The notes under the pieces are model-generated. The model worked only from the letters and a program-made list of their open reading frames with translations, ran no database searches and had not been told where the DNA came from. Shown here piece after piece: positions 10,701 through 47,448 of a stretch of DNA of 64,000 nucleotides. Origin of the DNA: a virus. How positions within the stretch are numbered: position 1 is the first letter of the stretch; every line of letters starts with the position of its first letter. A program made the translations under genes and the position numbers. The DNA lies in IMG/VR virus record IMGVR_UViG_3300028844_005639, one strand, 5' to 3'.

Positions 10701-13523
10701 AAGGAAATGCGTCGTAACATTATTTGGTTGAAAGACCGTAAGGACTTAGATCCGCCGATGATTAAAGACGGAAAACTTATCCCGGGACAGATTCTTCTTC
10801 CATACAAGTTCCTTAACCTAGTAGGCGGGGATGTTTCGAAGATTGATAAAAAGCTTCTTAACATGATCGGTTACCGTATTCCTAACCAAGGAGACGCCTC
10901 TACTGATTTACTTGAAGTAGTAGGATTCCTTCCAGAAGAGTATGGTGATACAGTAATTGCTTATGCAGAGATTACCGAAAAAACTGGTAGTGACTTCGAT
11001 ATTGATAAAATGTACATCATGGCCCCTAATTTCACGATGACTGAAGAAGGCTTAATCAAGACTCCTTACAATGAAGGAACATCTAAAGATGATGTTAAAG
11101 CACGTTACGAGATCTATTCAAAAACATTGGCAACTAAGCATGCCCTCTACGCAGAACTTGACAAAGTAGATTTTTGGAATCACCGTTCAAACTTAGTGCT
11201 AGACGCGGTTAAAGAAATCCTGAACGCCAAGTTTGCTAAGAATGACAATGCGTTAGCCTTTATAGCTATGATTGATAGTACGGAGTACGAAAACTCCAGT
11301 ATCCTAGACTCCATCAAGTCTTCGAATAACGTAGATATCTTATCGTTTGAAGAGTTCGCTAAGCTTCCGGTTACTGAACAGATTACTACTGAAGCTCTTC
11401 AAAACAGGTTTATGGATATCATGACAGAAGTTCTTTCGGAACCTTCTGGGTACATAAACATGATGACTCCATTGGAGTACCGTACCGCGGCTATTAAGAA
11501 AGACCTTAATCAAGTGCTAGAGGAATCCAATAGTACTCGAGATATTGATGCTTATGGTTTATCAGGACAGATTGATTCCAAGTATGCGTTTGCTGGAGGT
11601 AAAGCACAGCTTGGTGAGGTGATGAATTTCCTTCAGGACCACAGTGTGCGCCGTGAGGTAGGCCGTTTTATCAAAGCCGGACTCATAGACCTTAAAGCTG
11701 TAGAAACTCGTTTAGATGGGCGCTATGATGAAAACGGAGTGCCGTTGATGCAGATCTTTTCTGCGTACGCCTCGCTTCACGTAGATATTGCGACAGATCC
11801 TATCATTATCCGTGCAAACTGGTCTCAAGATACTACTAAAGTAGGATTGCTTATGCTGGCTGCTGGGTTACCTTATTCAAAAGTCGATCGGATTTTAAAT
11901 CAACCTATTATACGAGAGTACACTAAAAATAAACGACGCTTACGTGCAAAGTCTACTACACCTATCAAAAACAGTAACGGTAAGAAACTAAGTGCTTTTG
12001 AAGTAGCTGCTTTGAAATTTAATGAAGGTCAGAATATTAACGAAAAAGATTTACCAGTAACTGCTCCTAGTATGTTGACTAACAAAGTTTTAACGAGCCA
12101 GTTACAGTCAACAGGTAATGAACAGTTAGGTATCTTAGGTTTATACAAATTGTATGAAGACAACGCTAAAGAACTTACTCGAGGTATCCAAAATTCGAAG
12201 GTCGACAGCTCGCCGCCTAAACACCTTGTTGACGCATATGTTAAAGCGGACGTACGAGAAAAGATACAGCAGCATGATACTATAGGTAACTGGGATCAAA
12301 CTTTTGACCAAACTTTCTTAGGTACTATGTGGAAAAACTCTGTAACTACCCTCATTAACGGCTTACAGGACATAGCTATTGAAGGTACCCCAGCATTCCA
12401 AACAGCTATGAAAGAGTTCATGCATATGTCTGGACAAGATGTTTCAGTAGATGCGGTAGAGCAGTTCATGGAAGAGCTGTATGGAGCGTTCGCTTCAGGT
12501 TCTTCATTAAGCTTAACCGACGCGGAGTTTCAACGAATTTTTATAGGCAGCCAATCAGTGGCCCATAAAACTGTGGAGTATCAACAACCAGGCAGTCCGC
12601 TATACGGAAACGTATTTATTCAGTATCTGAATCCGAGTATTAAAACCGGAGATCACCCATCGATAGTCACAATTGATAACAACAATCAAATTTCAAATGA
12701 CGTTATCAACAATTTAAGAAACCAGTGGGTACAGCTTTATCGCCACGAAGATCCAGCTATTCGCGCTTATGCTTCTGACTTAGCTAAAGCGGCTTACCAC
12801 ACAAGTAATTTCAGGTATTCTACAAGAAGTATGTTGAAGTTACTGCCGGATCCTATCCTTCAAGACTTAGGGTATACAAAGTATGTAGAGGAGGCTATAT
12901 CTGGGAAGTTACAGGAAAGTAATTACTTATTGCCTATGATTAACCAAGTCTATAAGCACTTGTCAGACAACTCATCTTTGGTTCCTTTTGTTCCGTTTAA
13001 AGATATGCAGACAGTTCCAGTAGCTAACGAGTATAAAGACTATTTTCACAAAAGTCGCGTAGCATTAGTCGATGTCGAGAATAACCCAAAACTGGTTATT
13101 AAAAGCGATGGGAAAGATTTACTGCCTAACATGAAGCCCTTTATCTCCACCAAACTAAAAACAGGTAGTGAAGAGCAAGGGAATCGACGTCAAATAGATG
13201 CTACCATGATGTTCGTCGGTGTAACCAACAGTAAAGGCCGACAAAAAGCAATTTATGTTCGCACAAATACTCTAGGGTACTTCTCGGAAGGGAAGCGAGT
13301 AACAGAGTACAGCTTCTTCGAGTCCGGTAAGACTTCGAAGTTCTCTAAGAATAATGTACTTTTGTCTAAGGAGCAAAGAGGACTTATAGGGCAGTTCCTT
13401 AAGGAGAGTGCTGAAATAGCTAGTAGAGTCCAAGAAGATATGACTTTCTCAGCAGAACGTAGAGCACTGTCCCCGGAAAACGAAGAGAATCAAAAAATCA
13501 GTAAATTCTGTAGCACATCATGA
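1716..13523 (+). CDS. giant (3,935 aa) multidomain virion/ejected protein with a two-barrel RNA polymerase-like module (crAss-like vRNAP candidate), a PD-(D/E)XK nuclease-like module and an HExxH zincin motif
   Basis: Uninterrupted 11.8-kb ORF. Beta-like motif DEVITRSGSKGAVQKV (about nt 10064-10110) resembles GRHGNKGVISK. Beta-prime-like MIGYRIPNQG...TGSDFDIDKMYIMAP (nt 10863-11030) resembles NRAPTLH...NADFDGDQMAVHVP. PD-(D/E)XK pattern GTVDLLLY...VWIYDMKA...QLSAY (nt 5841-6020). LLHEFGHAG at nt 6696-6722. Gly-rich hydrophobic segment GAGTFGTSVGLMAPALAVGFLSGGALGAVGGAVAGA near aa 195-235. Confidence 0.85.
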   Translation: MGKQKRDYSDPTYEEFLSAVNEDPQNLEPPTTLDGVEVEPFIPPQSEEEFNALVKEVKASDNIGNNFSGSADLSGGRFGIGDTNLDDDGVSLYQVPHLEDLRAQSQGGMRLLGNALTNFGIEAAAGVLNFAGTIMDFEQMGDLINGTEMEFSNFFTDAVNGAKDSLVQDDGAMFKIYQTKAAQQGFAPTDSTWWAKGAGTFGTSVGLMAPALAVGFLSGGALGAVGGAVAGATVSRYVENTMEAFEVTDRLYKDFIREGMPEEQAREKAGAQGRKVWIANSAMLPIDIAQFIMSAGTMKAASKMGLGMAKAIGKDAATQIPQEAFEEFYQHVTAEEAVSEGLGKSGFYDQGFTYRLGDYVRDEQAWNAAFWGGVGGGVFSAASPMIQKKMEKTALYNGLLNQFRQKGDAVQFEKTSATMAYSTALQDLENTGSLDKSISTLDAIAQDDKLEPEARDRVTSLRTDLEEINKEIPAWQDQGYSKAEIANLSKLSMERRGIQRARKQLDSEISDLESSMIENDAMTPGALEVKSAQTKAEALSELQRFLTLKERNQAAQEQQMVTDGKSPAEIAAFQETRKHTKTILGQLKKDVPAAAKAAEEAKAAFIESEEFNNDVDTLEGQTLSTIENKYFEAISRRQQEDYALGRVNRDLKKAGTRSSKKATDQQAETEKKKTEDAVKQAAKDESSIEEINKLFKRNDPITYTDEEGNEVKGTFQGTSQSGVAVKGEDGVTRPIAKDKFSQAIEEKQASLEGTTEDINKTAREKTNESPGGWGAGTVEETAAPSSEAKGGWGEGTTEGATKPEADPTTEPEVGVDNKVVDEAHRGPGEVSTTPENKSIASEKKRPTTIAWISANNPKYSGEQHDADNKATTEFFEADNTTEGLEARVVISNEIQDWDTQDSPLDVDDVDIQLNVLDDQGNEIKINDGQVRGWVHKTNFEGYKTEAQKKQIRTIRQNMIDAVRAGNEVRVKLGPKKGGQIWYSSEVNTLEDIFKKSYEDINVYVVDNTGQLMPGNPIVTAMPDHTGKIAVVFEGYDGQLIAATGGTAKYTPALADAAMIVLRNATNYLGKSTITPKLAKYLREHESTEVSDVGTIFNLDPTKGDLPTLNELLNFFVVEGSRTEGNKNALKAKKGEGVTYVSNGKTRLIDNKSTPEETQMFKEHLLSLGFPVQAQHVQTPAGRKWYYQHGIYNFKLKPTAKGVPIHTPTIHFSENIEAIAPKEKATQTSKASSMDSRMDEVKAVSQTFSLSKDEKKYTRVVDGKTLTYERVTQFYKGESTEKTPKPVMISGGIIGDKNDEIWRAFFNGEIKTAEDIRKYKFQKKSIKGQKFGKNLTDAQLETFLNRLKALQTDFEKQGMKVLATDVVVFDDVEMVAGTVDLLLYNDKGDVWIYDMKAMKGNKFTEHYGKDPNTKYNATFDGGMSDKEAHSNQLSAYRALLHNAYGMTASKLAILPTVVSYNPGDTDINFSDVFGTDEQEIRFEVLNPYPVAIKDKVVHHADSDRVLTIRKGKVTKDVTKKSADDIMDGLLGDGYSSTLDDSISKERQMDTQTLDTILPYSTRRVSTMEETITGLLTLGDADVMTDMYAMQKAAAFGGSTFMQEFGSKVKVIVRSGREMSARPSMAGKDASRTIGIYEPETNQVVMNKDLIPYATPNMLARTLLHEFGHAGTIHVMHIYETDRTLLSGLAQDYVSTFYEMYDNLQLTDSEKAKTHALKSPQEFVAEFFGNQKFRQWSVERLVANNEKATGNILRRLFTFFKELFRFGFKAAIKAQRPVTADQLMGEFDEAFSASINDIRVAARGLGGYYAQEVQEPGEATPSELDAQETNEVLDFMQLVFFTQLQGAKSSVVNLSLDFGQVREKLATLSEEAEASIANVFKRAVLPENYAILVGRLNDRLRQAGIVINEEAESSMKEMGEYDKASFTINRKQNANLDVKLMVASLPEMDAKVDSEGNYTYTAAKGELLGLGKLAPANATWYAIQHLLKNLTITEGNSDVYSTMREKIRQFTPFYPSLAVLGNWLDNAPEYRRTQFMKAFNLQEITFILYQFNGYGKDLSVRRMDTTSVSKRNNLLEMWKNGFTTAFFQTNEKNEVKLTSNAKIAVERFNELAKETSRLRKGGKLPKEHLADWATFLKDSGIGIDPRTLEYGATLRNESNPADGLQQLINTTFRYVFAKSNYGNPLAKLVNEGVSVDENGDIPNPIKHADSESSLKSLVELEMMFRPQMNESTVLGADGDSYWVFQTYDYTNLLIDELKANPKMVDSLLQIPYHKHSSILKLMQKYGTDIIKVDTWNNARRMNAADKGTKYSRLERPDDLLLKMWGYTKGVLPYINQADKSRHYEISLDFKKIKERNGGKEVILLPETAMRKDGTWALGRSVPLMASLFLNELNASRLAWEQVFGDNKLPDNELIEDYHFVRDESGNMVKTLPNGLPTGSVFYSDIFPELSPGTGLAVSLDLYDSNGRPNVANSEEYYAGTTGGGSKLIPSFQKAFEPLVLAKILREKNRLLQIAEDDGLIEKTDSGYDNLIIPEELITESGTLENLFMTVAARSIYANAEITSLFYGDRRVFSKMKKDSDGAYMQGVFSSSLSKRVTGATAVKGRLRIDGKRVRKTYKAAVIADMITFSDKLLSEEHLREVAKATGESFSAIKRIFSDQGKTKNEQTGSGYDNNNAADAQAWITLDRAKEIFEGEGLWDDQMEDAYESLKAGKLKQSDVKLFSKAVNLAPQKGAYFAPMVINNQRVSVMDKYSQAILYPGLTKGTGLDGLRLAMERKVDGQNAVDEVITRSGSKGAVQKVATIFDSDGNMLDQATIEKELFTTDRENKHWGRQVEMSPKALNDNTLVNTQVRKNVFANVDREYVYESGRKGGEILAEKNAVISELSNRGLAEVSALYGTDPDGRFSEPAIRKVMRDEMVANNAPQDLIDSLDGTTNLNALPQDRKTLWYRIAAGVVKNTVKLKQLGGGFIQMSIAGISDTTEAGVVDLSYLKDLKKLKEMRRNIIWLKDRKDLDPPMIKDGKLIPGQILLPYKFLNLVGGDVSKIDKKLLNMIGYRIPNQGDASTDLLEVVGFLPEEYGDTVIAYAEITEKTGSDFDIDKMYIMAPNFTMTEEGLIKTPYNEGTSKDDVKARYEIYSKTLATKHALYAELDKVDFWNHRSNLVLDAVKEILNAKFAKNDNALAFIAMIDSTEYENSSILDSIKSSNNVDILSFEEFAKLPVTEQITTEALQNRFMDIMTEVLSEPSGYINMMTPLEYRTAAIKKDLNQVLEESNSTRDIDAYGLSGQIDSKYAFAGGKAQLGEVMNFLQDHSVRREVGRFIKAGLIDLKAVETRLDGRYDENGVPLMQIFSAYASLHVDIATDPIIIRANWSQDTTKVGLLMLAAGLPYSKVDRILNQPIIREYTKNKRRLRAKSTTPIKNSNGKKLSAFEVAALKFNEGQNINEKDLPVTAPSMLTNKVLTSQLQSTGNEQLGILGLYKLYEDNAKELTRGIQNSKVDSSPPKHLVDAYVKADVREKIQQHDTIGNWDQTFDQTFLGTMWKNSVTTLINGLQDIAIEGTPAFQTAMKEFMHMSGQDVSVDAVEQFMEELYGAFASGSSLSLTDAEFQRIFIGSQSVAHKTVEYQQPGSPLYGNVFIQYLNPSIKTGDHPSIVTIDNNNQISNDVINNLRNQWVQLYRHEDPAIRAYASDLAKAAYHTSNFRYSTRSMLKLLPDPILQDLGYTKYVEEAISGKLQESNYLLPMINQVYKHLSDNSSLVPFVPFKDMQTVPVANEYKDYFHKSRVALVDVENNPKLVIKSDGKDLLPNMKPFISTKLKTGSEEQGNRRQIDATMMFVGVTNSKGRQKAIYVRTNTLGYFSEGKRVTEYSFFESGKTSKFSKNNVLLSKEQRGLIGQFLKESAEIASRVQEDMTFSAERRALSPENEENQKISKFCSTS

Positions 13524-16500
13524 TATGTCCTAATGTAAACAGCCAGGAATGGCAGCACCTTGTAACTGCGGTAGGCGAAGATCTCGCTTATTATTTATGG
13601 GACGCCAATAACGGTAACCCAATGTCTATGACTCCGCAAGGAGAATTATCGCCATTGTACGACCAAATGCTGGACTATACTAACGGTAATGCTTTCGCTG
13701 CGTCAAAGCTTAAAGCGAGTGCTTACGATATCGCTTACCTACAAAGTAATGAGTGGCGTAAGGGTGCTGAGCCTAAGCTCGAAGTTAAAAGTAATGGCTC
13801 TTTGTACTTAGTACAGGATGTCGAAGGAGTTCCGTTTTACTACCGTATTAAGGCCCCAAGAACTACTACTAGTTTAAACTTCAATGATGCTGCTTCTATG
13901 GATGCGTATAAAGCTCCAGAGAACGAAGAAGACTTCAACACGAAGCTTGATATGATGCAAAAAAACTTCGCAGCATTTGACATAGACTTACAATTCGAAG
14001 GAGTGAATCCATCGATCGTGGCCATTAACGGCCGGATTCAACTTAACATGCCTTATCCTAACATATTAGCAGGGAAAGACAGTTTACTTCACGAGCATGG
14101 CCACATTTTAATCGAAGCTTTAGGTGGTATGAAAGATGACCACATAGCATTCGCTAGGCGTCAACTTGCAGGTACCAAGCTTGAAGAAGAGGTTACCAAA
14201 ATGTATCGTAGCCTAGATCAGGAATCTCTGGACAAAGAAATTATAGCACAAGCGGTAGGTATGAAGGCCGCGGAGCTTTTTGATGACTTAATGAAGCAGC
14301 GTAAATGGAAAGCTTGGCTTAAAGTTTACTTAAATCGATTGAAAGCTACACTAGGACTTAATCATGACGCAGTCATGGAACTAAGTCGCAAACTTCTTTT
14401 AGACGAATTAGCCTACACTGAGACCGACTTCCAAGCGGATGATAAGGTTTTAGGTACGCCATTCGAGCAACGTCAAACTGTTGAGGGGGTCCTAGAGAAT
14501 TTAATGGAACGAGTGCAGAGTTTGTATGCCCACTGGCAGCGTTTTAAAAACACAGACGCTATTGAACGTATGGGTCAGATGATTGAAGACATGGTAAACT
14601 TTAATGACATTCGATCGGCTATCGTGTACACCCAGAATGCAGAGCGAACTACGCTTAGGATCGAAAAAGACTTTGAAGAAATAGAAGCTAAACTCAAAGC
14701 TGGGGGATACATTACGGACGCAGAGTTTGAAAAACTTAGCCACCACCTCAAAAACATGCAACAGTTTGCTGGAGCTTTTAACTTGATTCCGGAAATTCAA
14801 GAATTGTTAGAAGCAGGTGAAATAGAATTCGGTAAGAAAGACTTAGTAGAGCTCGACTTTAAAGCCCCGGTAAAGACTTTAGGAGCAGTAGATGCCCGTC
14901 TCAAAAAGCTAGACAGGATGTACCAACGTATAATTCAAGAGTACACGGTCCAGCGCCACTATAAGGATATTGACATTGTGGAAAAAAACTGGGGACGAAA
15001 ATTCGAAAAAGAATACCACAAGCTCTACCGTAGCGCTGATCGTAAACGTCTAGGTAAAGAGGAGTACGATCGACGTAAACTAGCATTCATTAAGGAAAAG
15101 CTGGGAGAGAACCAGGCGACTATTGATGCCGAGTCTCAACAGTATTTACGTAATATGCTAGATAGACATATTGGATACGTTAGTGACATATCTTCACTTA
15201 CAGAATGGGCCTCGGATCCAAAATCCATTACTGATTCGGTTATGCAGATAGCCATAAAAATCATGGATAGAATCGATGAGGAAGTGCGCTTCGAGTTTCA
15301 ACAAGCACTTAGAGAACCTGTGGAAGCTTTTCAAAAATTTACAGCAGAACGAGGTAATCCTTTAAATCAGGAGGAGTTGTACAAAGGATTGTACGAAGAA
15401 ATCGACGGAGAAAAAACCGGATTTTACAACGGTAAGTTCCTAAGCTCCTTCTTGACTAATAAAAACGTATTGTGGAATGCTTATGCGGAAGCTAAAGAAG
15501 TAGATCCAAACGGTCCTAAAGAATTAGAAGCAAAAGCTGCATTCGAAGAGTGGAAGCTTGAGAACGAAGAACAACCTTATACAGCTGAGTTCTTAAAAAG
15601 GGTAACTGAGAATCGTGAACAATTTGTTCGTACAGAGGAGTATGTAAGGCTGAGTAAAGAACAGGCTAAAATCAGAAAGCGCTACATAATTAATGGAAGT
15701 TTCGCTTATGATAGACTCACTCCCGTAGACAAAGAAGCTTGGAACGCTAATGAAGCTGCACTTAAAGTAGAGCGGGAAGTTACTAAAGCGGAGAATAAAA
15801 CAGTACAAGAGGAATTTTTCAAGCTGTGGAAGTTTGTAGAAACTGCTCGTTACGAGAAAGTAAAGGACGAAAAACTTTTAGAAGGTACTGAGGCATACAA
15901 CGAATGGTATGTGGCTAATCATGATAAAGGTAAGGCTAAGCCCGCCTGGACTAAACTAGTGCCAAAAAGTGATGCTAACAATAATCCGAATTATCGGGAA
16001 CATTATACGACTCCGAAGTCGCAATGGTTAAACCCAGCTTGGGGGAACATGAAACAAATGATGGAGAACGAAAACAGTTCTGCGGGACAAATGTTGAAGT
16101 TCTTAAAAGAGAATGCTAATCGTGTGGATAAGGAATACGCGGGGAAAAGTCATCGTCGTAAGTATCTTACAAACGATGCTATGGACGACCTGATAGGGAT
16201 TCCGAAAGCGGAAAAACAGACTATCGAAAGGATAGCTGAGTCAGGCGTGCGTGCGGTATTTTGGGAAGGGTTAAAAGACAAACTGCAAAAAAGATCTACA
16301 GACACAGATCTAGAGATGGAAACTATGGATAACCCCGAGTGGGAAAAGTTCGTTAAAGTAGTTGTTGATGAGAATCACAAAGTAAAGCGATTCATTCCTA
16401 TCTACTTCCGAAACAGTCTAGCTAATAAAGCTGACCAATCTTATGACTTACTTTCACTAGAAATGATGGACTTGTATGCGGCTTTAAACTACAGCCGTAA

Positions 16501-18055
16501 AAGCAAATCCGAAGCAGACATCATGATCATTCAAGATGCTATGGCTAATCGAAAAGTAGCGCAGCAGAAAGGATTTAAGTATATGGTGAACTCTATCCTA
16601 CCTTGGATGAAGGGCGAAAACTTTAAACCGGTAAATATTGAGGGAGTGCACTCTAATGTTTATCAAGCCTTAGCTTCTACAGTAGAGAATCGATTATACA
16701 ACATCGGTGTACAAGATGCTGGGTCCGTCAAAATATTTGGAAAAAAGATTTCATTAAATAAACTATCCGACACTATTGCCGGATTCACTGGTTCCGTCAT
16801 GCTGACCTTCAACTGGCTGTCTGCAGGAGCTTCTGGACTACAGGGTAATATCCTGAACATGTCGGAAGCTTTTGGAGGCGTTAATATCAACGCGAAGAAT
16901 ATTAAAGCAGCGTACGCTTTGTATGCTGCTGATTTTGGGAATGTCCTTGCAGATGCTGGGCGTGTTGTACATAGAGCTAAGACTAACGCTTTACTCGAGT
17001 ACTTCAATCCGTCTGGTGCTTATCAAGGATTAGAAAGGCGTTTCTCTCAAAACAATATTATTCGACAAACAGCCGGTGCTGGTCTACATGCATTAAACTT
17101 TACCAACTGGCAGGAGCATCAAGTGCAAGGTACTTTAATGTACGCATTGCTTGATAGTTATGAAGTAGCTACTAAGTCCGGAGAAACTATGCCTTTACAC
17201 GAAGCTTTGGTAGTAGCCTCTAATGGTACTATTAGCTTTAATCCTGAAATCTCGCTGTCAGATAAGGAAATGAAAAGCTTACTGCTAGAGGCTTTCCGTA
17301 AGATTAAAGAAGTTACGAAGCAAAAGCATGGTAATTATGATCCAGCTAACAAAGCAAAAATGCAGCGAGTTATTGCTGGGCAACAAACTAGTATGCTACG
17401 TAAGTGGTTAGTACCAGGAGTACAACATCGCTTTCTCAATCTACGTTCCTTCAGTAAGGACTTCGAAGACATGGACGCCTACGAGTTAAGTTATAACGAA
17501 TCTTCTGGGCAATTTCAAGAAGGTATTTACACGACTACTTTAAGATTCTTACGCCAGTACCACAAAGAATTATTGGGACTTAAGTTTAAAGTAGCAGGAG
17601 CTGCCTGGGACGAGCTTACAGACGTGGAGCGAGGTAATATTCGCCAAACTGTATTTGAAGCTGGTATGATGGGCGCTACCTATTTAGCTTTTCTTGCTTT
17701 CTTATCGTTAGCAGAGGATGACGACGAATGGGCATATGTCCCAGCATTCTTCATGAGAAGATTATTTGGAGAACTTAGCTTCTATGTATGGCCGCCAGAG
17801 GCTTTCAAGATTTTACATTCGCCTGCAGCGACTGTATCTATGCTCGAGAGATTATCAGTGCTTGCTGTGCAAGCTATTTATGATATAGGAATGGTAGCTA
17901 CAGGAGGCGAAGCTACTCGATACGTGCAGAAACCGCACAAGGGGGAATTAAAATTGTGGAGACGTACTAAACAAGCTTTACCGATCGCATCTCAATTAGA
18001 ACGAAACGTTCAGAAGTCTCTGGAGTACCAACGTCGGATGATGGTTAACCAATAA
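13520..18055 (+). CDS. large (1,511 aa) virion/ejection-module protein with an N-terminal HExxH zincin motif and a C-terminal hydrophobic segment
   Basis: ATGA-type 4-nt overlap with the giant ORF. DSLLHEHGHILIEALGG has HEHGH at nt 14090-14104 (aa 191-195). C-terminal AGMMGATYLAFLAFLSLA looks like a TM helix. Confidence 0.8.
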   Translation: MICPNVNSQEWQHLVTAVGEDLAYYLWDANNGNPMSMTPQGELSPLYDQMLDYTNGNAFAASKLKASAYDIAYLQSNEWRKGAEPKLEVKSNGSLYLVQDVEGVPFYYRIKAPRTTTSLNFNDAASMDAYKAPENEEDFNTKLDMMQKNFAAFDIDLQFEGVNPSIVAINGRIQLNMPYPNILAGKDSLLHEHGHILIEALGGMKDDHIAFARRQLAGTKLEEEVTKMYRSLDQESLDKEIIAQAVGMKAAELFDDLMKQRKWKAWLKVYLNRLKATLGLNHDAVMELSRKLLLDELAYTETDFQADDKVLGTPFEQRQTVEGVLENLMERVQSLYAHWQRFKNTDAIERMGQMIEDMVNFNDIRSAIVYTQNAERTTLRIEKDFEEIEAKLKAGGYITDAEFEKLSHHLKNMQQFAGAFNLIPEIQELLEAGEIEFGKKDLVELDFKAPVKTLGAVDARLKKLDRMYQRIIQEYTVQRHYKDIDIVEKNWGRKFEKEYHKLYRSADRKRLGKEEYDRRKLAFIKEKLGENQATIDAESQQYLRNMLDRHIGYVSDISSLTEWASDPKSITDSVMQIAIKIMDRIDEEVRFEFQQALREPVEAFQKFTAERGNPLNQEELYKGLYEEIDGEKTGFYNGKFLSSFLTNKNVLWNAYAEAKEVDPNGPKELEAKAAFEEWKLENEEQPYTAEFLKRVTENREQFVRTEEYVRLSKEQAKIRKRYIINGSFAYDRLTPVDKEAWNANEAALKVEREVTKAENKTVQEEFFKLWKFVETARYEKVKDEKLLEGTEAYNEWYVANHDKGKAKPAWTKLVPKSDANNNPNYREHYTTPKSQWLNPAWGNMKQMMENENSSAGQMLKFLKENANRVDKEYAGKSHRRKYLTNDAMDDLIGIPKAEKQTIERIAESGVRAVFWEGLKDKLQKRSTDTDLEMETMDNPEWEKFVKVVVDENHKVKRFIPIYFRNSLANKADQSYDLLSLEMMDLYAALNYSRKSKSEADIMIIQDAMANRKVAQQKGFKYMVNSILPWMKGENFKPVNIEGVHSNVYQALASTVENRLYNIGVQDAGSVKIFGKKISLNKLSDTIAGFTGSVMLTFNWLSAGASGLQGNILNMSEAFGGVNINAKNIKAAYALYAADFGNVLADAGRVVHRAKTNALLEYFNPSGAYQGLERRFSQNNIIRQTAGAGLHALNFTNWQEHQVQGTLMYALLDSYEVATKSGETMPLHEALVVASNGTISFNPEISLSDKEMKSLLLEAFRKIKEVTKQKHGNYDPANKAKMQRVIAGQQTSMLRKWLVPGVQHRFLNLRSFSKDFEDMDAYELSYNESSGQFQEGIYTTTLRFLRQYHKELLGLKFKVAGAAWDELTDVERGNIRQTVFEAGMMGATYLAFLAFLSLAEDDDEWAYVPAFFMRRLFGELSFYVWPPEAFKILHSPAATVSMLERLSVLAVQAIYDIGMVATGGEATRYVQKPHKGELKLWRRTKQALPIASQLERNVQKSLEYQRRMMVNQ

Positions 18056-18127
18056 GAAACGAGTGGCAGTACTTTAGCCTGGCTGTGTTTACGAACCTCA
18101 CTCATTAATGCTTGCACTCTATTTAGC

Positions 18128-18200
18128 ACGAGAGGTAAGACTCAAACTTACAACCTTCGGTTTTGCAGACCACTGCCTACATCCCCTCGGCCACACTGAC
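18128..18200 (-). pseudogene. degenerate tRNA-like element (anticodon-loop-like CUGCAAA, GCA)
   Basis: The minus-sense sequence has a class-II-like D arm (UG-GCC-GAGGGGAUGUA-GGC), an anticodon-arm-like hairpin and a T-arm-like hairpin GUAAG-UUUGAGU-CUUAC. The T loop has U where C56 is expected. The flanking 7-mers GUCAGUG and CUCUCGU do not form an acceptor stem. Confidence 0.3.
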
Positions 18201-19011: not shown

Positions 19012-19491
19012 TTAAACTATAATACCTAAAGCCACCCTTGGGTGTAATTTTAATGCCGTTTCACATTGACCCTTAGTAGCCATAAGCGCTTTTTTAAGGT
19101 TATCAGGCAAATGTTCTGGGTGATTTTCCATGCCGTGTGAGATAAACATCATGTTACATCCGATGTGTCCGATATGAGGAAGACTACTTTCAGGATCCAA
19201 GTATTCACCGTTTTGCAATGCTACAATATGCCTCAGGAGACTATCTAGCAATTGGTTAAACGGGAAGCCATCTTTCCACTGGTCTCGACCACTACGGATC
19301 ACTTTCAGGTTTTTAGCCTCATTCGGTGTAATGTCGACACCTTGTACTTCTTTTCCTTCCTTATCTTCGAAGACTGAGTATTTGTGCGCTCCATAAGCTA
19401 GCACATCCGCCACAGGCTTTAGACTTTCCATATCGATATAGCTGTACTGGGTTTTACCAGTATTGTATCTTAAGGCTTCCTTAGAACTCAT
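19012..19491 (-). CDS. DUF5664-like protein (dATP/dGTP diphosphohydrolase N-terminal-domain family)
   Basis: The pattern GK..Y......L..VADVLAYGAHKY ... W..G.....LLDSLLRHI.A...GE.LD.ES.L.HIGH..CN..F matches my memory of the phage DUF5664/PF18909 signature. Confidence 0.5.
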   Translation of the reverse strand: MSSKEALRYNTGKTQYSYIDMESLKPVADVLAYGAHKYSVFEDKEGKEVQGVDITPNEAKNLKVIRSGRDQWKDGFPFNQLLDSLLRHIVALQNGEYLDPESSLPHIGHIGCNMMFISHGMENHPEHLPDNLKKALMATKGQCETALKLHPRVALGIIV

Positions 19492-42425: not shown

Positions 42426-44420
42426 TTATTTTTTCCAATGACTCGCAATCTCTGCGTCTGCAGGGATAGGAACCGATTCACAAAATCGTGCTGCCGCATT
42501 TTCCATACAATCTTTAAGCACCACTTTGACCTGTTCTTGGATCACCGCGGGGCATTCTAACTGTATTTCATCATGCGCCATAACTACAATCTTAACTTCG
42601 TTTATGTAATCGTTTTCTTGAATCCAACGCATTACGTAAATAGCAGCCAGTTTGGTCATGTCTGCAGCTGTACCTTGAATAGGAAAGTTTAGTCCCTTTC
42701 TCTGAAACGTGCCTTGAAGCTGAAAATACTCTTTCACCAAAGGCTTAAATTCCTGCTGAAATTCGAAGTTATCCTCGGCTTTAGCTGTCCTGTATCTCTC
42801 CCAAAAACCCGTAGCACTTACTTGCTTCTTTAAGCTTAAGTATTTGTCATATCCGCCAAGGAATGAACGTCTACCAGACTTACTGTTAATCAGTACGTAA
42901 CCGTGTTTTAATGGAAAATCAGCCGCTTTTTTAAAGTAGCTTTTCAGTCCCGGAAATTTATCCATGAAGTATTTATAGGCTGCATCAGCTACTTCAATAG
43001 CAATACCGAGATTATCAGCAATGGTTTTACCATTACCTCCGTACGGTATTGCAAAAGTTCCAGGTTTCACAAACTGTCTTTTTTCAGGATGCAGAGCTTT
43101 AATCTTTTGATGAGTAAGACTTCGCAACTCTGGATAGACTGCCTGTGCCATCAAACAGTGTATATCCTTGGTAGGATCGTTCACATAAGCAAGGTACTCT
43201 CTATCACGACTCATGTCCGCTAGTACTCTAGTTTCTTGACCAGAGTAATCCGCTCCTACAATAACATTACCGGCTTCTGCTGTAAAGCATTTTCTAGTAT
43301 GGTCTGCAGGTAAGTTCTGAATATTCGGATCATCTGAAGAAATACGTCCGGTATCCTTAATTTGCCTAAACGATGAATGAATTCTACCTGTCAAAGGTTT
43401 AATGTACTCGAGATAATTTTCTCCGTAAGTAGAAACTACTTTGGCAGCTTTTGAATATGCTTCGTAAAGGTTTAAGATAGGAAAATTTGCGGCGAACTTC
43501 ATAATGAACTTGAGCTCCACAGTATGCTTTTTGGTCTTCGAATTAAGAGTATCTATACCTAGTCCTTTAAACAACATTTTGACTTGTTGGTCAGAGCCCC
43601 AATTGATAATTACACCTTCGGTACCATCTGCAGGTTCCCCCTCAGCGTTAAACATTTCCCCTTGGTAACTGATAAACTGCGAAGTAGGATGTTTTTTTAA
43701 AACATAGTCATTAAGTTCTTGAATGGCTTTTGACAAGTTTATCTTGTCTTGAACCATTTTTTCTCTCCATTTCTTCTGATCTAAATGGATACCACCGTGA
43801 CTCATGTAAGTCATCGGTACTACAAATTTGTTTTCCAGGTTGGCTACTCTAAGAAGATCTTGTTTTTCAAGCGCTTTAGATTGCGCTTCATGGAGTTTAT
43901 GTAAGTACTTTACATCATCTGCAGCATAGACTACTACTCTAGTAGAAAGTCCTTCTCGATGAATGTGGCCCCGAACACTCTTATCTAATTGAACTTTTAA
44001 GTATCGATCAGCACAAGATGCAAGCCCACGATAACCTTTAAACAGCAGTAAACCAGTTGTAAGTACAGATTCTTGAAGAAATGTATCAATACATTGCATT
44101 GGATAAACGCCATGATGGAATAGAAATCGTAAATCAAAGTTCAAGTTATGTCCTATGATCGTAGATTCTTCGATAATGTCTTTAAAAGCTTTAAGCGGTA
44201 CAGTAGTATTGTCTATGACATACTGATCAGAGCCGCCATCAGAGAGCTGCGTACAGAGTAGTTCGCAACTAAATGGGTCTAATCCTTTAGTTTCAGTATC
44301 TAAAGCCAAGAGAGGAGCCCCTTTAAGGGCTTCTCTAGCTTTTTCAACATTCACTTTACGTATTAAATCTGGCGAGTACTGGTCAAATAACTCAGTCTGC
44401 TCCGTTATTAGATAAATCAT
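42426..44420 (-). CDS. polA: family A DNA polymerase with 3'-5' exonuclease domain
   Basis: Exo I LALDTETKG, Exo II IGHNLNFDLRFL, Exo III YAADDVKYL. Pol motif A VGADYSGQETRVLA, motif B RQFVKPGTFAIPYGG, motif C VMAHDEIQLE. Start chosen at MIYLITEQ. The track ORF extends to 44462. Confidence 0.9.
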   Translation of the reverse strand: MIYLITEQTELFDQYSPDLIRKVNVEKAREALKGAPLLALDTETKGLDPFSCELLCTQLSDGGSDQYVIDNTTVPLKAFKDIIEESTIIGHNLNFDLRFLFHHGVYPMQCIDTFLQESVLTTGLLLFKGYRGLASCADRYLKVQLDKSVRGHIHREGLSTRVVVYAADDVKYLHKLHEAQSKALEKQDLLRVANLENKFVVPMTYMSHGGIHLDQKKWREKMVQDKINLSKAIQELNDYVLKKHPTSQFISYQGEMFNAEGEPADGTEGVIINWGSDQQVKMLFKGLGIDTLNSKTKKHTVELKFIMKFAANFPILNLYEAYSKAAKVVSTYGENYLEYIKPLTGRIHSSFRQIKDTGRISSDDPNIQNLPADHTRKCFTAEAGNVIVGADYSGQETRVLADMSRDREYLAYVNDPTKDIHCLMAQAVYPELRSLTHQKIKALHPEKRQFVKPGTFAIPYGGNGKTIADNLGIAIEVADAAYKYFMDKFPGLKSYFKKAADFPLKHGYVLINSKSGRRSFLGGYDKYLSLKKQVSATGFWERYRTAKAEDNFEFQQEFKPLVKEYFQLQGTFQRKGLNFPIQGTAADMTKLAAIYVMRWIQENDYINEVKIVVMAHDEIQLECPAVIQEQVKVVLKDCMENAAARFCESVPIPADAEIASHWKK

Positions 44421-44775
44421 AAGCGATGTTTTTAAAGGTAATGTCGTGCGTACTGAGGTCATCTTCGTTTAATATGCCAGTTTCGACTAATGCGCTAATT
44501 CTATAATTGAAGACAGCGTCGTCTAGCATAGCACAAGTTTCAGGATCACATAACGCATATTCTCCGTTAGGCATCAGTTCTCTCCAAGAGCCATTCGAGA
44601 TAAACACCGCTAATCGATGTAATTGCGTTTTGCCTATGAAGAATTTTTTTCGTGAAAACCACAGCTTAACTATGTACTTATCCTGTTCTTCATTATAAAT
44701 AGGTAGCACATTAGCAATGTGGTCATAGTACCATGTAAGTTTCATCTCTCTATTGGTTTTTTGTTTTTGATGCAC
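44392..44775 (-). CDS. hypothetical protein (127 aa)
   Basis: First ORF downstream of the tmRNA on the minus strand. Confidence 0.6.
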   Translation of the reverse strand: MHQKQKTNREMKLTWYYDHIANVLPIYNEEQDKYIVKLWFSRKKFFIGKTQLHRLAVFISNGSWRELMPNGEYALCDPETCAMLDDAVFNYRISALVETGILNEDDLSTHDITFKNIAYDLSNNGAD

Positions 44776-44840: not shown

Positions 44841-45252
44841 TGGTGGAGGCGCCGAGATTCGAACTCGGGTCCATATTGTACTCACTACAATTTTTCTACA
44901 TGTTTAGGATAGAGCCGAGCTCTCCATGGATCAAAAACTTTTTGTGGTGTATAAGGCTCACACTTAAGTAGAGGTTTACGATCATTATCTCGATTCTGTG
45001 AACACGCCCTACCACTAACTTAGTGGCCAAGACAGGCTTCTTAGGCAGCCATTGCAACCTCACGTACTTCTGTCTCCGCTGGGCGAAAAGAGATTACGTT
45101 GTTTTTCTCGGCAGCCAAAACGTCAGCTTTGGTACCTAGTGTTGAATCTACGTTGCCGTTTATTCATGATAATACGTATTTTTAGAGTGTCAATATCATT
45201 CACTCACATGCTTACAATTCTAACGTTACAACTGTCTATTCCAATCGCCCCC
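44841..45252 (-). ncRNA. ssrA: transfer-messenger RNA (tmRNA, SsrA), phage-encoded
   Basis: 5' GGGGGCG pairs with 3' CGCCUCC with a G3.U70 wobble. Discriminator A plus encoded CCA. T arm CCGAG-UUCGAAU-CUCGG. 5' GGGGGCGAUUGGAAUAGACAG and 3'-proximal CAUGUAGAAA resemble Bacteroidota tmRNAs. The internal tag frame ends ...EVAMAA-UAA. Confidence 0.85.
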
Positions 45253-45261
45253 ATAGGTTTG

Positions 45262-45269
45262 CAAAAATA
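45262..45269 (-). promoter_or_regulatory. -7 box TATTTTTG (TAnnTTTG) 9 nt upstream of the tmRNA 5' end
   Basis: Plus-strand CAAAAATA at 45262-45269. The spacing to the RNA 5' end is the same as at the tRNA(CAU) promoter. Confidence 0.45.
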
Positions 45270-45299
45270 AAAAAAGCCCCAACAATATTGTCAAGGCTC
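45264..45299 (-). terminator. intrinsic terminator downstream of groEL
   Basis: Minus sense: AGCCUUGACAA-ua-UUGUUGGGGCU, an ~11-bp stem including G.U pairs, followed by UUUUUUUAUUUUU. Confidence 0.65.
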
Positions 45300-45324
45300 T
45301 TTTTATTCCACTAATTATTCAACT

Positions 45325-47273
<1,949 letters not shown>

Positions 47274-47448
47274 ATTACTGTGTGTTAAAGCCACTCAATG
47301 CGAGGGCAGTATTTATTCTTAAATCCTTTGATTGCTTCTATAGTAGGGGAATCTTCAGCCTTATTTCCGACTTTTTTAGATAACCACTCAACTAGGGTAG
47401 TGGCGGCAAAGATAACCAAAATGATTAATGCTACTTTTACTATTTATT

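What the first reader, a model, noticed from the sequence alone, without database searches (positions are those of the whole stretch)
44841..45252. Phage-encoded tmRNA with an apparently very long (38-codon) tag ending in AMAA
The tRNA-like domain is textbook: a G3.U70 acceptor, discriminator A, encoded CCA and a UUCGAAU T loop. The only frame that ends in an ...AA-stop opens after an in-frame UGA (45166-45164). If resumption is at GGC 45157 (about nt 96 of the RNA, the usual location; Bacteroidota tags start with Gly), it reads GNVDSTLGTKADVLAAEKNNVISFRPAETEVREVAMAA-UAA (stop at 45043-45041). Typical tags are about 10-11 residues. This one contains an internal ...ADVLAA followed by 22 more codons, as if a stop had been lost or a second degron had been added. 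A phage tmRNA with a different tag could redirect the fate of rescued nascent chains or counter ribosome-stalling defences.
Basis: partly seen in the sequence, partly recalled or inferred. Interest (0 to 1): 0.7.

Follow-up and report, generated by a model that had tools for sequence, protein, structure and literature searches.

The report
Phage tmRNA with a read-through tag
An uncultured marine crAss-like phage carries a real ribosome-rescue RNA (tmRNA) whose peptide tag is 38 codons long, longer than any I could find on record, because a 13-base insertion knocked the original stop codon out of frame.

Summary
Infernal (Rfam RF00023) calls a full-length tmRNA at 44841-45252 (-) with 74.9 bits. 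It places the resume codon at GGC 45157, and the frame reads 38 codons to UAA 45043-45041, ending in VAMAA. ARAGORN misses the gene only because it rejects tags longer than 33 codons; once the tag is shortened in silico it calls the same resume codon.

The host genome is a ~92-kb marine crAss-like phage, probably infecting Bacteroidota. The gene sits between groES-groEL and DNA polymerase.

The main new result is that this RNA is a divergent member of a large family of tmRNAs on IMG/VR viral contigs that I could not find in the literature (family-profile E 1e-17). Of 104 full-length members, 94 encode a conserved 21-22-residue tag, and most lie next to a ClpC-like ATPase and an M42-like peptidase. 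Aligned to that family, the window copy has a 13-nt insertion immediately before the family stop codon. This shifts the stop out of frame, so reading continues through formerly non-coding RNA.

The new end, AMAA, is a Bacteroidota-type degron and is unlikely by chance (P about 0.003). Expression and function are untested. I rate it a new variant of a known kind, of moderate interest.

The parts
44841..45252 (-). One-piece tmRNA (ssrA) gene, 412 nt, with encoded CCA
   Evidence: Rfam RF00023 gives 74.9 bits, E 2.9e-27, full model. A profile of the viral tmRNA family matches at 51.5 bits, E 1.1e-17, full length.
45246..45252 (-). Acceptor stem, 5' strand (RNA nt 1-7, GGGGGCG)
   Evidence: Seven pairs with nt 402-408, including G3.U406, the alanine identity pair.
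44841..44868 (-). T arm (nt 385-401, loop UUCGAAU), acceptor 3' strand (402-408), discriminator A409 and CCA (410-412)
   Evidence: Base pairs checked. The covariance-model alignment has posterior probability '*' here.
45169..45205 (-). Pseudoknot 1 (stem 1: nt 48-52/64-68; stem 2: nt 54-60/78-84)
   Evidence: Complementarity checked. In variant L005, the SNP U82>C turns G56.U82 into G-C in this register.
45164..45166 (-). In-frame UGA (nt 87-89) that closes the tag frame upstream
   Evidence: Read directly from the sequence.
45155..45157 (-). Resume codon GGC (nt 96-98)
   Evidence: Placed here by the covariance-model alignment, by ARAGORN on shortened versions, and by alignment with the family's resume codon.
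45110..45157 (-). Family-homologous part of the tag, codons 1-16 (GNVDSTLGTKADVLAA)
   Evidence: hmmalign to the family profile shows two in-frame deletions (9 + 6 nt) relative to the 21-codon family tag. At peptide level only GNV and TLG are retained.
45097..45109 (-). 13-nt insertion GAGAAAAACAACG (nt 144-156) that shifts the frame
   Evidence: It forms insert columns in hmmalign, between the last family tag codon and the family stop. It is present in all population variants examined.
45094..45096 (-). UAA at the family's stop position (nt 157-159), now out of frame
   Evidence: Aligned with the TAA of all eight family representatives.
45044..45109 (-). Tag extension, codons 17-38 (EKNNVISFRPAETEVREVAMAA)
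   Evidence: Read directly. It aligns with the family's non-coding post-stop region, including the ACAGAAGT motif at nt 180-187, window 45066-45073.
45041..45043 (-). Functional stop codon UAA (nt 210-212)
   Evidence: First in-frame stop. An alternative small hairpin GGCU[GCCUAAGA]AGCC was predicted in one fragment but is not in the MFE fold of a wider fragment.
45110..45136 (-). Hairpin A inside the tag frame (nt 117-143)
   Evidence: Free energy -13.0 kcal/mol, z -3.5 against shuffles.
45062..45099 (-). Hairpin B inside the extension (nt 154-191)
   Evidence: Free energy -12.7 kcal/mol, z -2.2. The L005 SNP U167>C is synonymous and turns a G.U pair into G-C here.
44908..45040 (-). Pseudoknot domain (nt 213-345), poorly resolved; a hotspot of SNPs in the population
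   Evidence: Low posterior probability in the covariance-model alignment. All six SNPs of variant L249 fall at nt 285-336.
44896..44908 (-). CCUAAACAUGUAG motif (nt 345-357), helix 2 3' strand, shared with the viral family
   Evidence: This pattern retrieved the family. Pairing of nt 42-47 with 350-355 was checked.
45263..45304 (-). groEL intrinsic terminator hairpin plus U-run, directly upstream of the tmRNA; it overlaps a possible Bacteroidota -7 box TAtTTTTG (45262-45269)
   Evidence: Free energy -17.3 kcal/mol, z -5.5. The promoter motif is my own reading of the sequence and is an inference only.
45325..47294 (-). groES (46968-47294) and groEL (45325-46968), immediately upstream
   Evidence: Pfam Cpn10 and Cpn60_TCP1. 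The nearest GroEL sequences are from Bacteroidota bacteria at 63-66% identity.
42426..44745 (-). Downstream genes: a 117-aa ORF (44392-44745) and family A DNA polymerase (42426-44462)
   Evidence: Pfam DNA_pol_A and the 3'-5' exonuclease domain. Identity to crAss-like phages is 33-37%.

Best explanation
This is a one-piece tmRNA gene carried by an uncultured ~92-kb marine crAss-like phage that probably infects a member of the Bacteroidota. It is a divergent member of a large family of tmRNAs on viral contigs whose normal tag is a conserved 21-22-residue peptide.

In this copy, a 13-nt insertion directly in front of the family's stop codon put that stop out of frame. The tag frame therefore continues for 22 more codons through sequence that is non-coding in the relatives. 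It ends at a new UAA after ...VAMAA.

Inferred mechanism, step by step:
- Host alanyl-tRNA synthetase charges the RNA, using the G3.U70-type pair, discriminator A and CCA.
- Host SmpB and EF-Tu deliver it to stalled ribosomes. No smpB was found in the window.
- Translation resumes at GGC (nt 96) and adds Ala plus 38 residues, unwinding two hairpins on the way, then terminates.
- The C-terminal AMAA, which is the ending of natural Cytophagia/Chitinophagia tags, hands the product to host ClpXP-type proteases.

What is shown: the gene, its frame, its family membership and the insertion. What is inferred: expression, charging, tagging and proteolysis.
For: Gene and frame:
- Full-length Rfam hit.
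- ARAGORN calls the same termini and resume codon once the tag is 33 codons or fewer.
- The tRNA-like domain, helix 2, pseudoknot 1 and the 11-nt spacer are intact.

Family membership:
- The family profile matches the whole RNA at 51.5 bits, E 1.1e-17.
- The same profile matches 120 bacterial tmRNA loci only over the 3' tRNA-like end.
- 94 of 104 family members have 21-22-residue tags. Their codon-position differences are 11963/6856/14713 for positions 1/2/3, and 56% of single-nucleotide codon differences are synonymous. These tags are therefore translated and under selection.

Stop loss:
- hmmalign puts the 13-nt insertion between the last tag codon and the family TAA.
- It also puts the conserved post-stop motif ACAGAAGT inside the window's frame.

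The new end is not junk:
- In 20,000 dinucleotide shuffles of the downstream sequence, the read-through ends in Ala-Ala in 0.3% of cases and in hydrophobic-Ala-Ala in 0.09%.
- Bacteroidota tags end in A[LM]AA.

Population data:
- The gene with its insertion is identical in that region across seven contigs from different samples.
- The only change in the tag frame is synonymous.
- The six SNPs of L249 all lie in the pseudoknot domain and none in the 117-nt frame (Fisher p 0.03).

Phage context.
Against: - No relative shares the extension, so the 38-codon frame has no comparative support of its own.
- At peptide level the tag matches the family only at GNV and TLG. The alignment around the insertion has moderate posterior probability.
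- In 51 of 76 family members the stop lies in the apical loop of helix 5. In the window neither the old nor the new stop does so in the MFE fold.
- SNPs are 17-fold enriched in the tmRNA relative to its flanks (6/412 against 4/4588, p 5e-5). One contig breaks inside the gene. Both observations fit relaxed constraint as well as tolerance of change in the pseudoknot domain.
- The Rfam score (74.9 bits) is well below the 146-173 bits of bacterial tmRNAs scanned here.
- No smpB or Clp gene was found among the ORFs tested, and about 28 kb of the phage genome was not seen.
- There are no expression data.
Confidence: 0.6

Rival explanations
1. The gene is a decaying or neutral passenger. It was acquired from a phage of the 21-residue-tag family without that family's Clp-like and M42-like partners. 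Its tag lost constraint, the stop was lost by accident, and the RNA is no longer used, or is used only to release ribosomes with the tag sequence irrelevant.
For: - The conserved family tag is almost unrecognisable here.
- The Clp-like and M42-like neighbours are absent from the window.
- SNP density is 17 times that of the flanking genes.
- Helix 5 with the stop in its loop is not predicted.
- The family-profile score is 51.5 bits against a family median of 282.
Against: - All parts needed for charging, SmpB binding and frame setting are intact: acceptor stem with G.U, T arm, pseudoknot 1, spacer and the U-A upstream signal.
- No SNP in any variant hits the acceptor stem or T arm, and the only change in the tag frame is synonymous.
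- An AMAA end is expected in only 0.1-0.3% of random read-throughs.
- The gene is retained in every assembly of the phage.
Confidence: 0.2
2. The origin is different: AMAA-UAA is the ancestral tag end, or was copied from a host ssrA. About 29 codons were inserted between GN and VAMAA by internal insertion or duplication of the tag-coding region, rather than by loss of a stop.
For: - Both ends match the Bacteroidota pattern G[NE]xx[YF]A[LM]AA.
- The last four codons plus stop (GCA AUG GCU GCC UAA) differ at one base from those of a Chitinophagaceae tmRNA, L222.
- Among 120 bacterial loci, L222 is the only full-length nhmmer hit to the window RNA.
Against: - The family profile aligns the extension, including the 8-mer ACAGAAGT, with the family's post-stop RNA, and aligns a TAA at the family stop position.
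- The whole RNA is of normal family length (412 nt against 378-420), so the tag is long because the frame is longer, not because RNA was added.
- Tests for internal duplication were not significant: p 0.05-0.28 and p about 0.1 for each half against known tags.
Confidence: 0.12
3. Translation resumes further downstream, for example at GCG nt 174, which would give AETEVREVAMAA. The real tag would then be of normal length.
For: That peptide has 12 residues, starts with Ala and ends in AMAA (read).
Against: - The candidate codon lies 90 nt after pseudoknot 1 and lacks the A-rich upstream signal with U(-5)A(-4).
- Infernal, ARAGORN and homology with 94 family members all place the resume codon at nt 96.
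- Every candidate is in the same frame, so only the length would change.
Confidence: 0.05

Closest known systems
Standard one-piece bacterial tmRNA (Rfam RF00023), Bacteroidota type
   Same: - tRNA-like domain with a G3.U70-type pair.
- Helix 2 and pseudoknot 1.
- Resume codon about 11 nt after pseudoknot 1.
- Gly resume codon followed by Asn.
- Tag ending in A-M-A-A, as in Cytophagia and Chitinophagia.
   Different: - The tag is 38 codons, against a uniform 9 in free-living Bacteroidota.
- The stop is not in a predicted helix 5 loop.
- The pseudoknot domain is short and poorly alignable.
- The gene lies in a phage genome.
Family of tmRNAs on IMG/VR viral contigs with a conserved 21-22-residue tag
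   Same: - Full-length profile match, E 1e-17.
- Same pseudoknot 1 layout.
- GGC AAC GU. resume region.
- CCUAAACRUGUAG and ACAGAAGU motifs.
- Similar total length.
   Different: - The family tag is largely lost, and the stop is displaced by a 13-nt insertion.
- There is no ClpC-like ATPase or M42-like peptidase nearby; groES-groEL sits there instead.
- The profile score is far below the family median.
Known phage-encoded tmRNAs (mycobacteriophage Bxz1 group, Bacillus phage G, Pelagibacter/OM43 myophages such as Melnitz)
   Same: - A complete ssrA in a lytic-type phage genome (PMC4131195; PMC9004378).
- Bxz1 also has a tag (25 residues) about twice as long as the mycobacterial host tag (about 12 residues from my memory).
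   Different: - No sequence relation was detected.
- Melnitz-type tmRNAs are two-piece.
- None is reported with a tag beyond 31-35 residues.
- None of the crAss-like-phage papers I opened describes a crAss-like phage tmRNA; most of the 18 hits were not read.
Long-tag tmRNAs of Mollicutes and of the Bacteroidota endosymbiont Cardinium
   Same: Tags are much longer than the usual 10-11 residues: 24-31 in Mycoplasma and Phytoplasma, 27 in Cardinium.
   Different: - Those tags are conserved within their lineages. From my own knowledge (Gur and Sauer 2008), the Mycoplasma tags are recognised by Lon rather than ClpXP.
- Here the length comes from a recent frame extension, and the end is a ClpXP-type AMAA.

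Membership tests
tmRNA (RF00023) | Covariance-model score above the curated gathering threshold over the full model | tested here: met
   74.9 bits against a threshold of 47, model positions 1-374, E 2.9e-27.
tmRNA (RF00023) | tRNA-Ala-like acceptor stem with G3.U70, discriminator A, CCA and T arm, but no anticodon arm | tested here: met
   Seven-pair acceptor stem with G3.U406, A409, CCA, and T arm CCGAG/CUCGG with loop UUCGAAU.
tmRNA (RF00023) | Pseudoknot 1 followed by a short single-stranded A-rich spacer and the resume codon | tested here: met
   Stems at nt 48-52/64-68 and 54-60/78-84, an 11-nt spacer ending in AAUAAAC, and GGC at nt 96.
tmRNA (RF00023) | Short tag frame (reported range 8-35 residues) ending in a hydrophobic Ala-rich degron | tested here: inconclusive
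   The degron-like end VAMAA is present. The length of 38 codons is outside the 8-35 range quoted in PMC8012679 and above the maximum of 31 in ARAGORN's table of about 605 tags.
tmRNA (RF00023) | Stop codon in the loop of helix 5 | tested here: inconclusive
   Not in the MFE fold of a 63-nt fragment. A 4-bp hairpin with UAA in its loop appears in another fragment. There is no covariation to decide between them.
tmRNA (RF00023) | Partner protein SmpB available; the RNA is expressed, charged with Ala and used in trans-translation | not testable with these tools
   No smpB among the ORFs scanned. Host SmpB is assumed. There are no expression data.
   nhmmer gives 51.5 bits, E 1.1e-17, profile positions 2-387. 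Bacterial tmRNAs match only positions 313-388.
   Only GNV and TLG are retained. The family-position TAA is out of frame after a 13-nt insertion.
   tblastn of both proteins finds nothing in the 64-kb window. About 28 kb of the phage genome was not available.
crAss-like phages (Crassvirales-related) | Large terminase and family A polymerase closest to crAss-like phages, with giant virion-associated proteins | tested here: met
   TerL is 31% identical to Cellulophaga phage phi14:2, and all TerL hits are crAss-like phages of Bacteroidota. PolA is 33-37% identical to cr108_1, IAS virus and crAss001. ORFs of 3935 and 1511 aa are present. Formal taxonomy was not tested.

The most novel reading that the evidence does not exclude
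Phage tmRNAs may use long, sequence-specific tags as addresses for machinery that the phage chooses. In the large viral family found here, the conserved 21-residue tag would be read by the co-encoded ClpC-like ATPase and M42-like peptidase, giving a complete phage-borne tag-and-destroy module. The window's copy would be that system transplanted into a crAss-like phage without its partners. After losing its stop, it would have been re-addressed to the host protease by acquiring a host-type AMAA end, next to a phage GroES/GroEL.
Probability: 0.15. Interest if true: 0.8.

Novelty: new variant of a known kind. Interest (0 to 1): 0.55.

Why it matters
Phage-encoded tmRNAs are known (about 2% of phage genomes, PMC9004378), but their role is unsettled.

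This case matters for three reasons:
- It gives a tag longer than the quoted 8-35-residue range, with a traceable mutational origin: a frameshifting insertion before the stop. The new end looks selected. If so, the tag is translated in vivo and its C-terminus matters to the phage.
- It exposes a blind spot in annotation. ARAGORN is the tool used by Pharokka and most phage surveys. It cannot report tags above 33 codons, and it missed or mis-framed 97 of 104 members of the related viral family.
- It led to that family, whose conserved 21-residue tag sits next to a Clp-like unfoldase and a peptidase. This makes the question 'what do phage tmRNAs tag proteins for?' directly testable.

Tried and rejected
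Searches for close relatives that found nothing useful:
- blastn of the tmRNA and tblastn of the tag against GenBank phages gave no hits.
- Exact and degenerate patterns from the tRNA-like domain in IMG/VR gave only unrelated tmRNAs.
- A JGI metagenome scan gave 16 chance hits.
- GTDB genomes gave no exact match. The degenerate pattern hit many phyla, and only the single Bacteroidota locus aligned full-length.
- Loci around polymerase relatives at 40-55% identity contained no tmRNA.
- Loci around GroEL relatives contained no tmRNA either.
- The small ORFs flanking the tmRNA have no homologues in those relatives.

Ideas considered and rejected:
- Tandem duplication of the tag: not significant.
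- Each half of the tag resembling a complete known tag (Leifsonia, Roseiflexus, cyanobacteria): p about 0.1.
- A suppressor tRNA or recoding: the giant ORFs are intact under the standard code, and my visual reading of the fourth tRNA-like hit suggests anticodon GCA (Cys); no tool confirmed this.
- A riboswitch or other RNA family at the locus: none found.
- An attP remnant: rejected because the full-length gene is present.
- Bacterial tmRNAs missed by ARAGORN having long tags: those checked are of normal length, 349-353 nt.

Things that did not work:
- RNAalifold on a MAFFT alignment of the family's helix 5 gave no consensus because the gaps were not consistent with the structure. I used per-sequence folds instead.
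- Look-ups of three population variants: two were not on record and one succeeded.
Full report
**The observation**

Infernal with Rfam RF00023 reports one full-length tmRNA at window 44841-45252 on the minus strand: 74.9 bits against a gathering score of 47, E 2.9e-27.
- A seven-pair acceptor stem with G3.U406.
- Discriminator A and an encoded CCA.
- A T arm with loop UUCGAAU.
- A two-stem pseudoknot 1 (nt 48-52/64-68 and 54-60/78-84).
- An 11-nt A-rich spacer.
- GGC at RNA nt 96 (window 45157).

The frame is closed upstream by UGA at nt 87-89. It reads GNVDSTLGTKADVLAAEKNNVISFRPAETEVREVAMAA and then UAA at nt 210-212, window 45043-45041.

**Why ARAGORN misses it**

ARAGORN finds three tRNAs in the window but no tmRNA. 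I mutated the sequence in silico. Placing a stop after ADVLAA, or deleting five or more codons so that the tag is 33 codons or fewer, makes ARAGORN call a tmRNA with the same termini and resume nt 96. With 34 to 38 codons it calls nothing. The miss is therefore a length cut-off in the program, not a defect in the gene.

**Where the gene sits**

The window is phage DNA. It carries a large terminase, RIIA/RIIB, ribonucleotide reductase, a DnaB-like helicase, ThyX, dUTPase, a ligase and two giant ORFs of 3935 and 1511 aa.
- The terminase is closest to Cellulophaga phage phi14:2 (31% identity), and it hits only crAss-like phages of Bacteroidota.
- The polymerase is 33-37% identical to those of crAss-like phages.

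The tmRNA lies 72 nt downstream of a groES-groEL pair. The nearest relatives of that GroEL are Bacteroidota bacteria at 63-66% identity. A strong terminator hairpin separates groEL from the tmRNA.

The same arrangement occurs in ENA, JGI and Logan assemblies from several marine samples, on contigs up to 92 kb. It is therefore not an assembly chimera.

The nearest polymerase relatives (55% identity and below) have no tmRNA in the equivalent place.

**How unusual the length is**

- A review gives 8-35 residues as the range of tag lengths (PMC8012679).
- ARAGORN's built-in table of about 605 tags runs from 6 to 31 residues.
- In that table every free-living Bacteroidota tag is a 9-mer of the form G[EN]xx[YF]A[LM]AA. 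The AMAA ending occurs in Cytophagia and Chitinophagia.
- Phage tmRNAs as such are known: 402 of 18,146 phage genomes carry one (PMC9004378), including the mycobacteriophage Bxz1 group and Bacillus phage G (PMC4131195).
- Bxz1 already has a 25-residue tag.
- A small IMG/VR sample contained viral tags of 24-31 residues.

**Relatives**

Direct searches found no close relative.

- 104 of these carry full-length tmRNAs of about 378-420 nt, plus a few outliers.
- Many align with the window RNA over its whole length.
- A profile built from 50 representatives scores the window RNA at 51.5 bits, E 1.1e-17, across positions 2-387.
- The same profile matches 120 bacterial tmRNA loci only at the 3' tRNA-like end.

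In 94 of the 104 members, reading from the homologous GGC or GGN resume codon gives a 21-22-residue tag with a clear profile. Examples are GNVLSKMETLGLVRESEVTVA, GNVLDNLSVVGLIATEQVTVA and GETFAKLQAVGLLRTEEVYAA. There are 50 distinct tag sequences.

Among the 53 distinct 21-codon frames:
- Pairwise differences fall 11963/6856/14713 on codon positions 1/2/3.
- 56% of single-nucleotide codon differences are synonymous.

This is the signature of a translated peptide under selection. In 51 of 76 distinct sequences, the stop lies in the apical loop of a predicted helix 5.

ARAGORN calls only 28 of the 104, and gives the homology-consistent tag in only 7. I found none of these tag strings in the searchable literature, nor in ARAGORN's table.

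**What happened to the window's tag**

hmmalign of the window RNA and eight family members to the family profile shows the following:
- The same resume region (..AC|GGC AAC GU.).
- Two in-frame deletions of 9 and 6 nt, which reduce 21 codons to 16.
- A 13-nt insertion, GAGAAAAACAACG (nt 144-156), lying exactly between the last tag codon and the TAA that every relative uses as its stop.

Because 13 is not a multiple of three, that TAA (nt 157-159) is now out of frame.

Downstream, the window's codons E-T-E-V (GAG ACA GAA GUA) align with ACAGAAGT. This motif occurs in 62 of 95 relatives, 42-76 nt after their stop. The extension is therefore formerly non-coding RNA.

The total length of the RNA (412 nt) is ordinary for the family. 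The tag is long because the frame is longer, not because the RNA is longer.

Peptide similarity to the family is limited to GNV and TLG. The alignment around the insertion has only moderate posterior probability, so I treat the stop-loss path as likely rather than proven.

**Is the extension used?**

An open frame of 22 more codons is not surprising. It occurs in 22% of shuffles, and the same shifted frame is open for 17 or more codons in 19 of 95 relatives.

Ending in Ala-Ala is surprising: 0.3% of shuffles do so, and 0.09% end in hydrophobic-Ala-Ala. VAMAA also matches the host-phylum degron.

The last four codons plus stop differ at one base from those of a Chitinophagaceae tmRNA. Gene conversion from a host ssrA is therefore possible.

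Population data are thin but consistent:
- Four contigs are identical to the window across the tmRNA.
- L005 has four changes in the first 203 nt. The one in the tag frame is synonymous (UUU>UUC) and also turns a G.U pair into G-C in hairpin B. Another turns a G.U pair into G-C in pseudoknot 1.
- L249 has six changes, all in the pseudoknot domain (nt 285-336), and none in the 117-nt frame (Fisher p 0.03).

Against this, SNPs are 17-fold enriched in the tmRNA relative to flanking genes (p 5e-5). The canonical arrangement of the stop in the helix 5 loop is not predicted. A decaying gene therefore remains a real alternative.

**Mechanism and rivals**

I consider it most likely (about 0.6) that this is a working tmRNA. 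It would depend on host alanyl-tRNA synthetase, SmpB and EF-Tu, resume at GGC, add Ala plus 38 residues, and deliver products to host ClpXP-type proteases through the AMAA end.

The rivals are:
- A neutral or decaying passenger (0.2).
- A different origin of the long frame, by internal insertion or a host-derived end (0.12).
- A downstream resume site that would give a normal-length tag (0.05).

No smpB, clp or lon gene was found among the ORFs tested, but about 28 kb of the genome was not available.

**The family's neighbourhood**

In family loci for which at least 8 kb was held:
- 45 of 59 carry a ClpC/ClpA-like double AAA+ ATPase. It is always on the tmRNA strand, at a median distance of 2.8 kb.
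- 46 of 59 carry an M42/M20-like peptidase, at a median distance of 1.6 kb.
- Other neighbours are ORFans or PHROGs of unknown function, with almost no NCBIfam hits.

Close homologues of the ATPase (85-100% identity) are all unnamed metagenomic proteins, on contigs up to 309 kb. The best GenBank phage hits are 630-640-kb 'huge phages' at 57% identity.

A viral origin is therefore plausible but not proven. This suggests, but does not show, that the conserved long tag is the address for a phage-encoded unfoldase and peptidase. The window's phage lacks these genes in the 64 kb seen and has GroES/GroEL beside the tmRNA instead.

**Verdict**

The finding is real and the reading of it was essentially right. 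It is a new variant of a known kind: a phage tmRNA whose tag was lengthened to a record 38 codons by a frameshifting insertion before the stop, and which has a host-type degron at the new end. Function is untested. Interest is moderate. It is raised by the link to a large viral tmRNA family that I did not find described, and by the demonstrated blind spot in the standard annotation tool.

Noticed in passing
It has a conserved 21-22-residue tag, for example GNVLSKMETLGLVRESEVTVA, with 50 distinct variants and a codon pattern that indicates purifying selection. The tags are absent from ARAGORN's table and from the searchable literature, and the tmRNA has no blastn hit in GenBank phages.
   Followed up: partly
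L312:3380-5437 (+) and L312:5467-6540 (+); L433:6806-8842 (-) and L433:3404-4450 (-): A ClpC/ClpA-like double AAA+ ATPase (~680 aa) and an M42/M20-like peptidase lie within a few kb of the family tmRNA in about three quarters of the loci with enough flank. The ATPase is always on the same strand as the tmRNA. This may be a phage-borne module for tagging, unfolding and degrading proteins.
   Followed up: partly
window 44841-45252 and the family loci: ARAGORN v1.2.41 cannot report tmRNAs with tags longer than 33 codons. It called only 28 of 104 family members, and only 7 with the homology-consistent tag. Phage surveys and Pharokka rely on it, so tmRNA counts and tag lists for phages are probably biased.
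   Followed up: yes
window 45325-47294 (-): A crAss-like phage encodes a groES-groEL pair directly upstream of the tmRNA. The nearest relatives of its GroEL are Bacteroidota bacteria at 63-66% identity. GroEL-bearing IMG/VR phages at 56-59% identity have no tmRNA beside the gene.
   Followed up: partly
window 44908-45040 (RNA nt 213-345); loci L249 and L005: Population SNPs are concentrated in the tmRNA. L249 has 6 in 412 nt against 4 in 4588 nt of flank. L005 has 4 in 203 nt against 2 in 4716 nt, and its contig ends inside the gene. The cause is unresolved: relaxed constraint, a recombination patch or diversification.
   Followed up: partly
window 18127-18200 (-): A fourth tRNA-like hit from Rfam only (35.4 bits), not called by ARAGORN. 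It lies next to tRNA-Met, tRNA-Arg(ACG) and tRNA-Tyr. My visual reading of the anticodon loop suggests GCA (Cys), not a suppressor, but the acceptor pairing looked poor.
   Followed up: partly
L335, L349, L364, L344, L357, L322 (IMG/VR): Other, unrelated viral tmRNAs have long acidic tags of 24-31 residues, for example ADEEYRDLLAEAEQIFNNADAYVPEEALLAA and AKTEVDMAPSLAEADAILAKFGWAEEAAVAA. With Bxz1's 25-mer, this hints that long tags are common in phage tmRNAs.
   Followed up: no
L240:994-1072 (+): A mini element of about 80 nt that consists of a tmRNA-like tRNA-like domain only (GGGGGCGATTGGCATCGACAG...CCACCGCCTCCACA). It recalls the domain-only molecule of mycobacteriophage DS6A mentioned in PMC4131195.
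   Followed up: no
L239, L241, L242, L244, L245 (IMG/VR contigs up to 76 kb): Five related contigs share a conserved stretch that starts with a tmRNA-like 5' end (GGGGGCGGTTGGTGTTGACAGGG). No matching 3' end was recognisable within 460 nt, and neither ARAGORN nor nhmmer gave a call.
   Followed up: no
window 19012-19491 (-): An ORF with the N-terminal domain of dATP/dGTP diphosphohydrolase (PF18909). It sits among nucleotide-metabolism genes (dUTPase, dCMP deaminase, ThyX, ribonucleotide reductase). No PurZ-like gene was found among the ORFs tested.
   Followed up: partly
window 1716-18055 (+): Two giant ORFs of 3935 and 1511 aa have no Pfam or PHROG hit. They are presumably the crAss-type giant virion proteins.
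   Followed up: no
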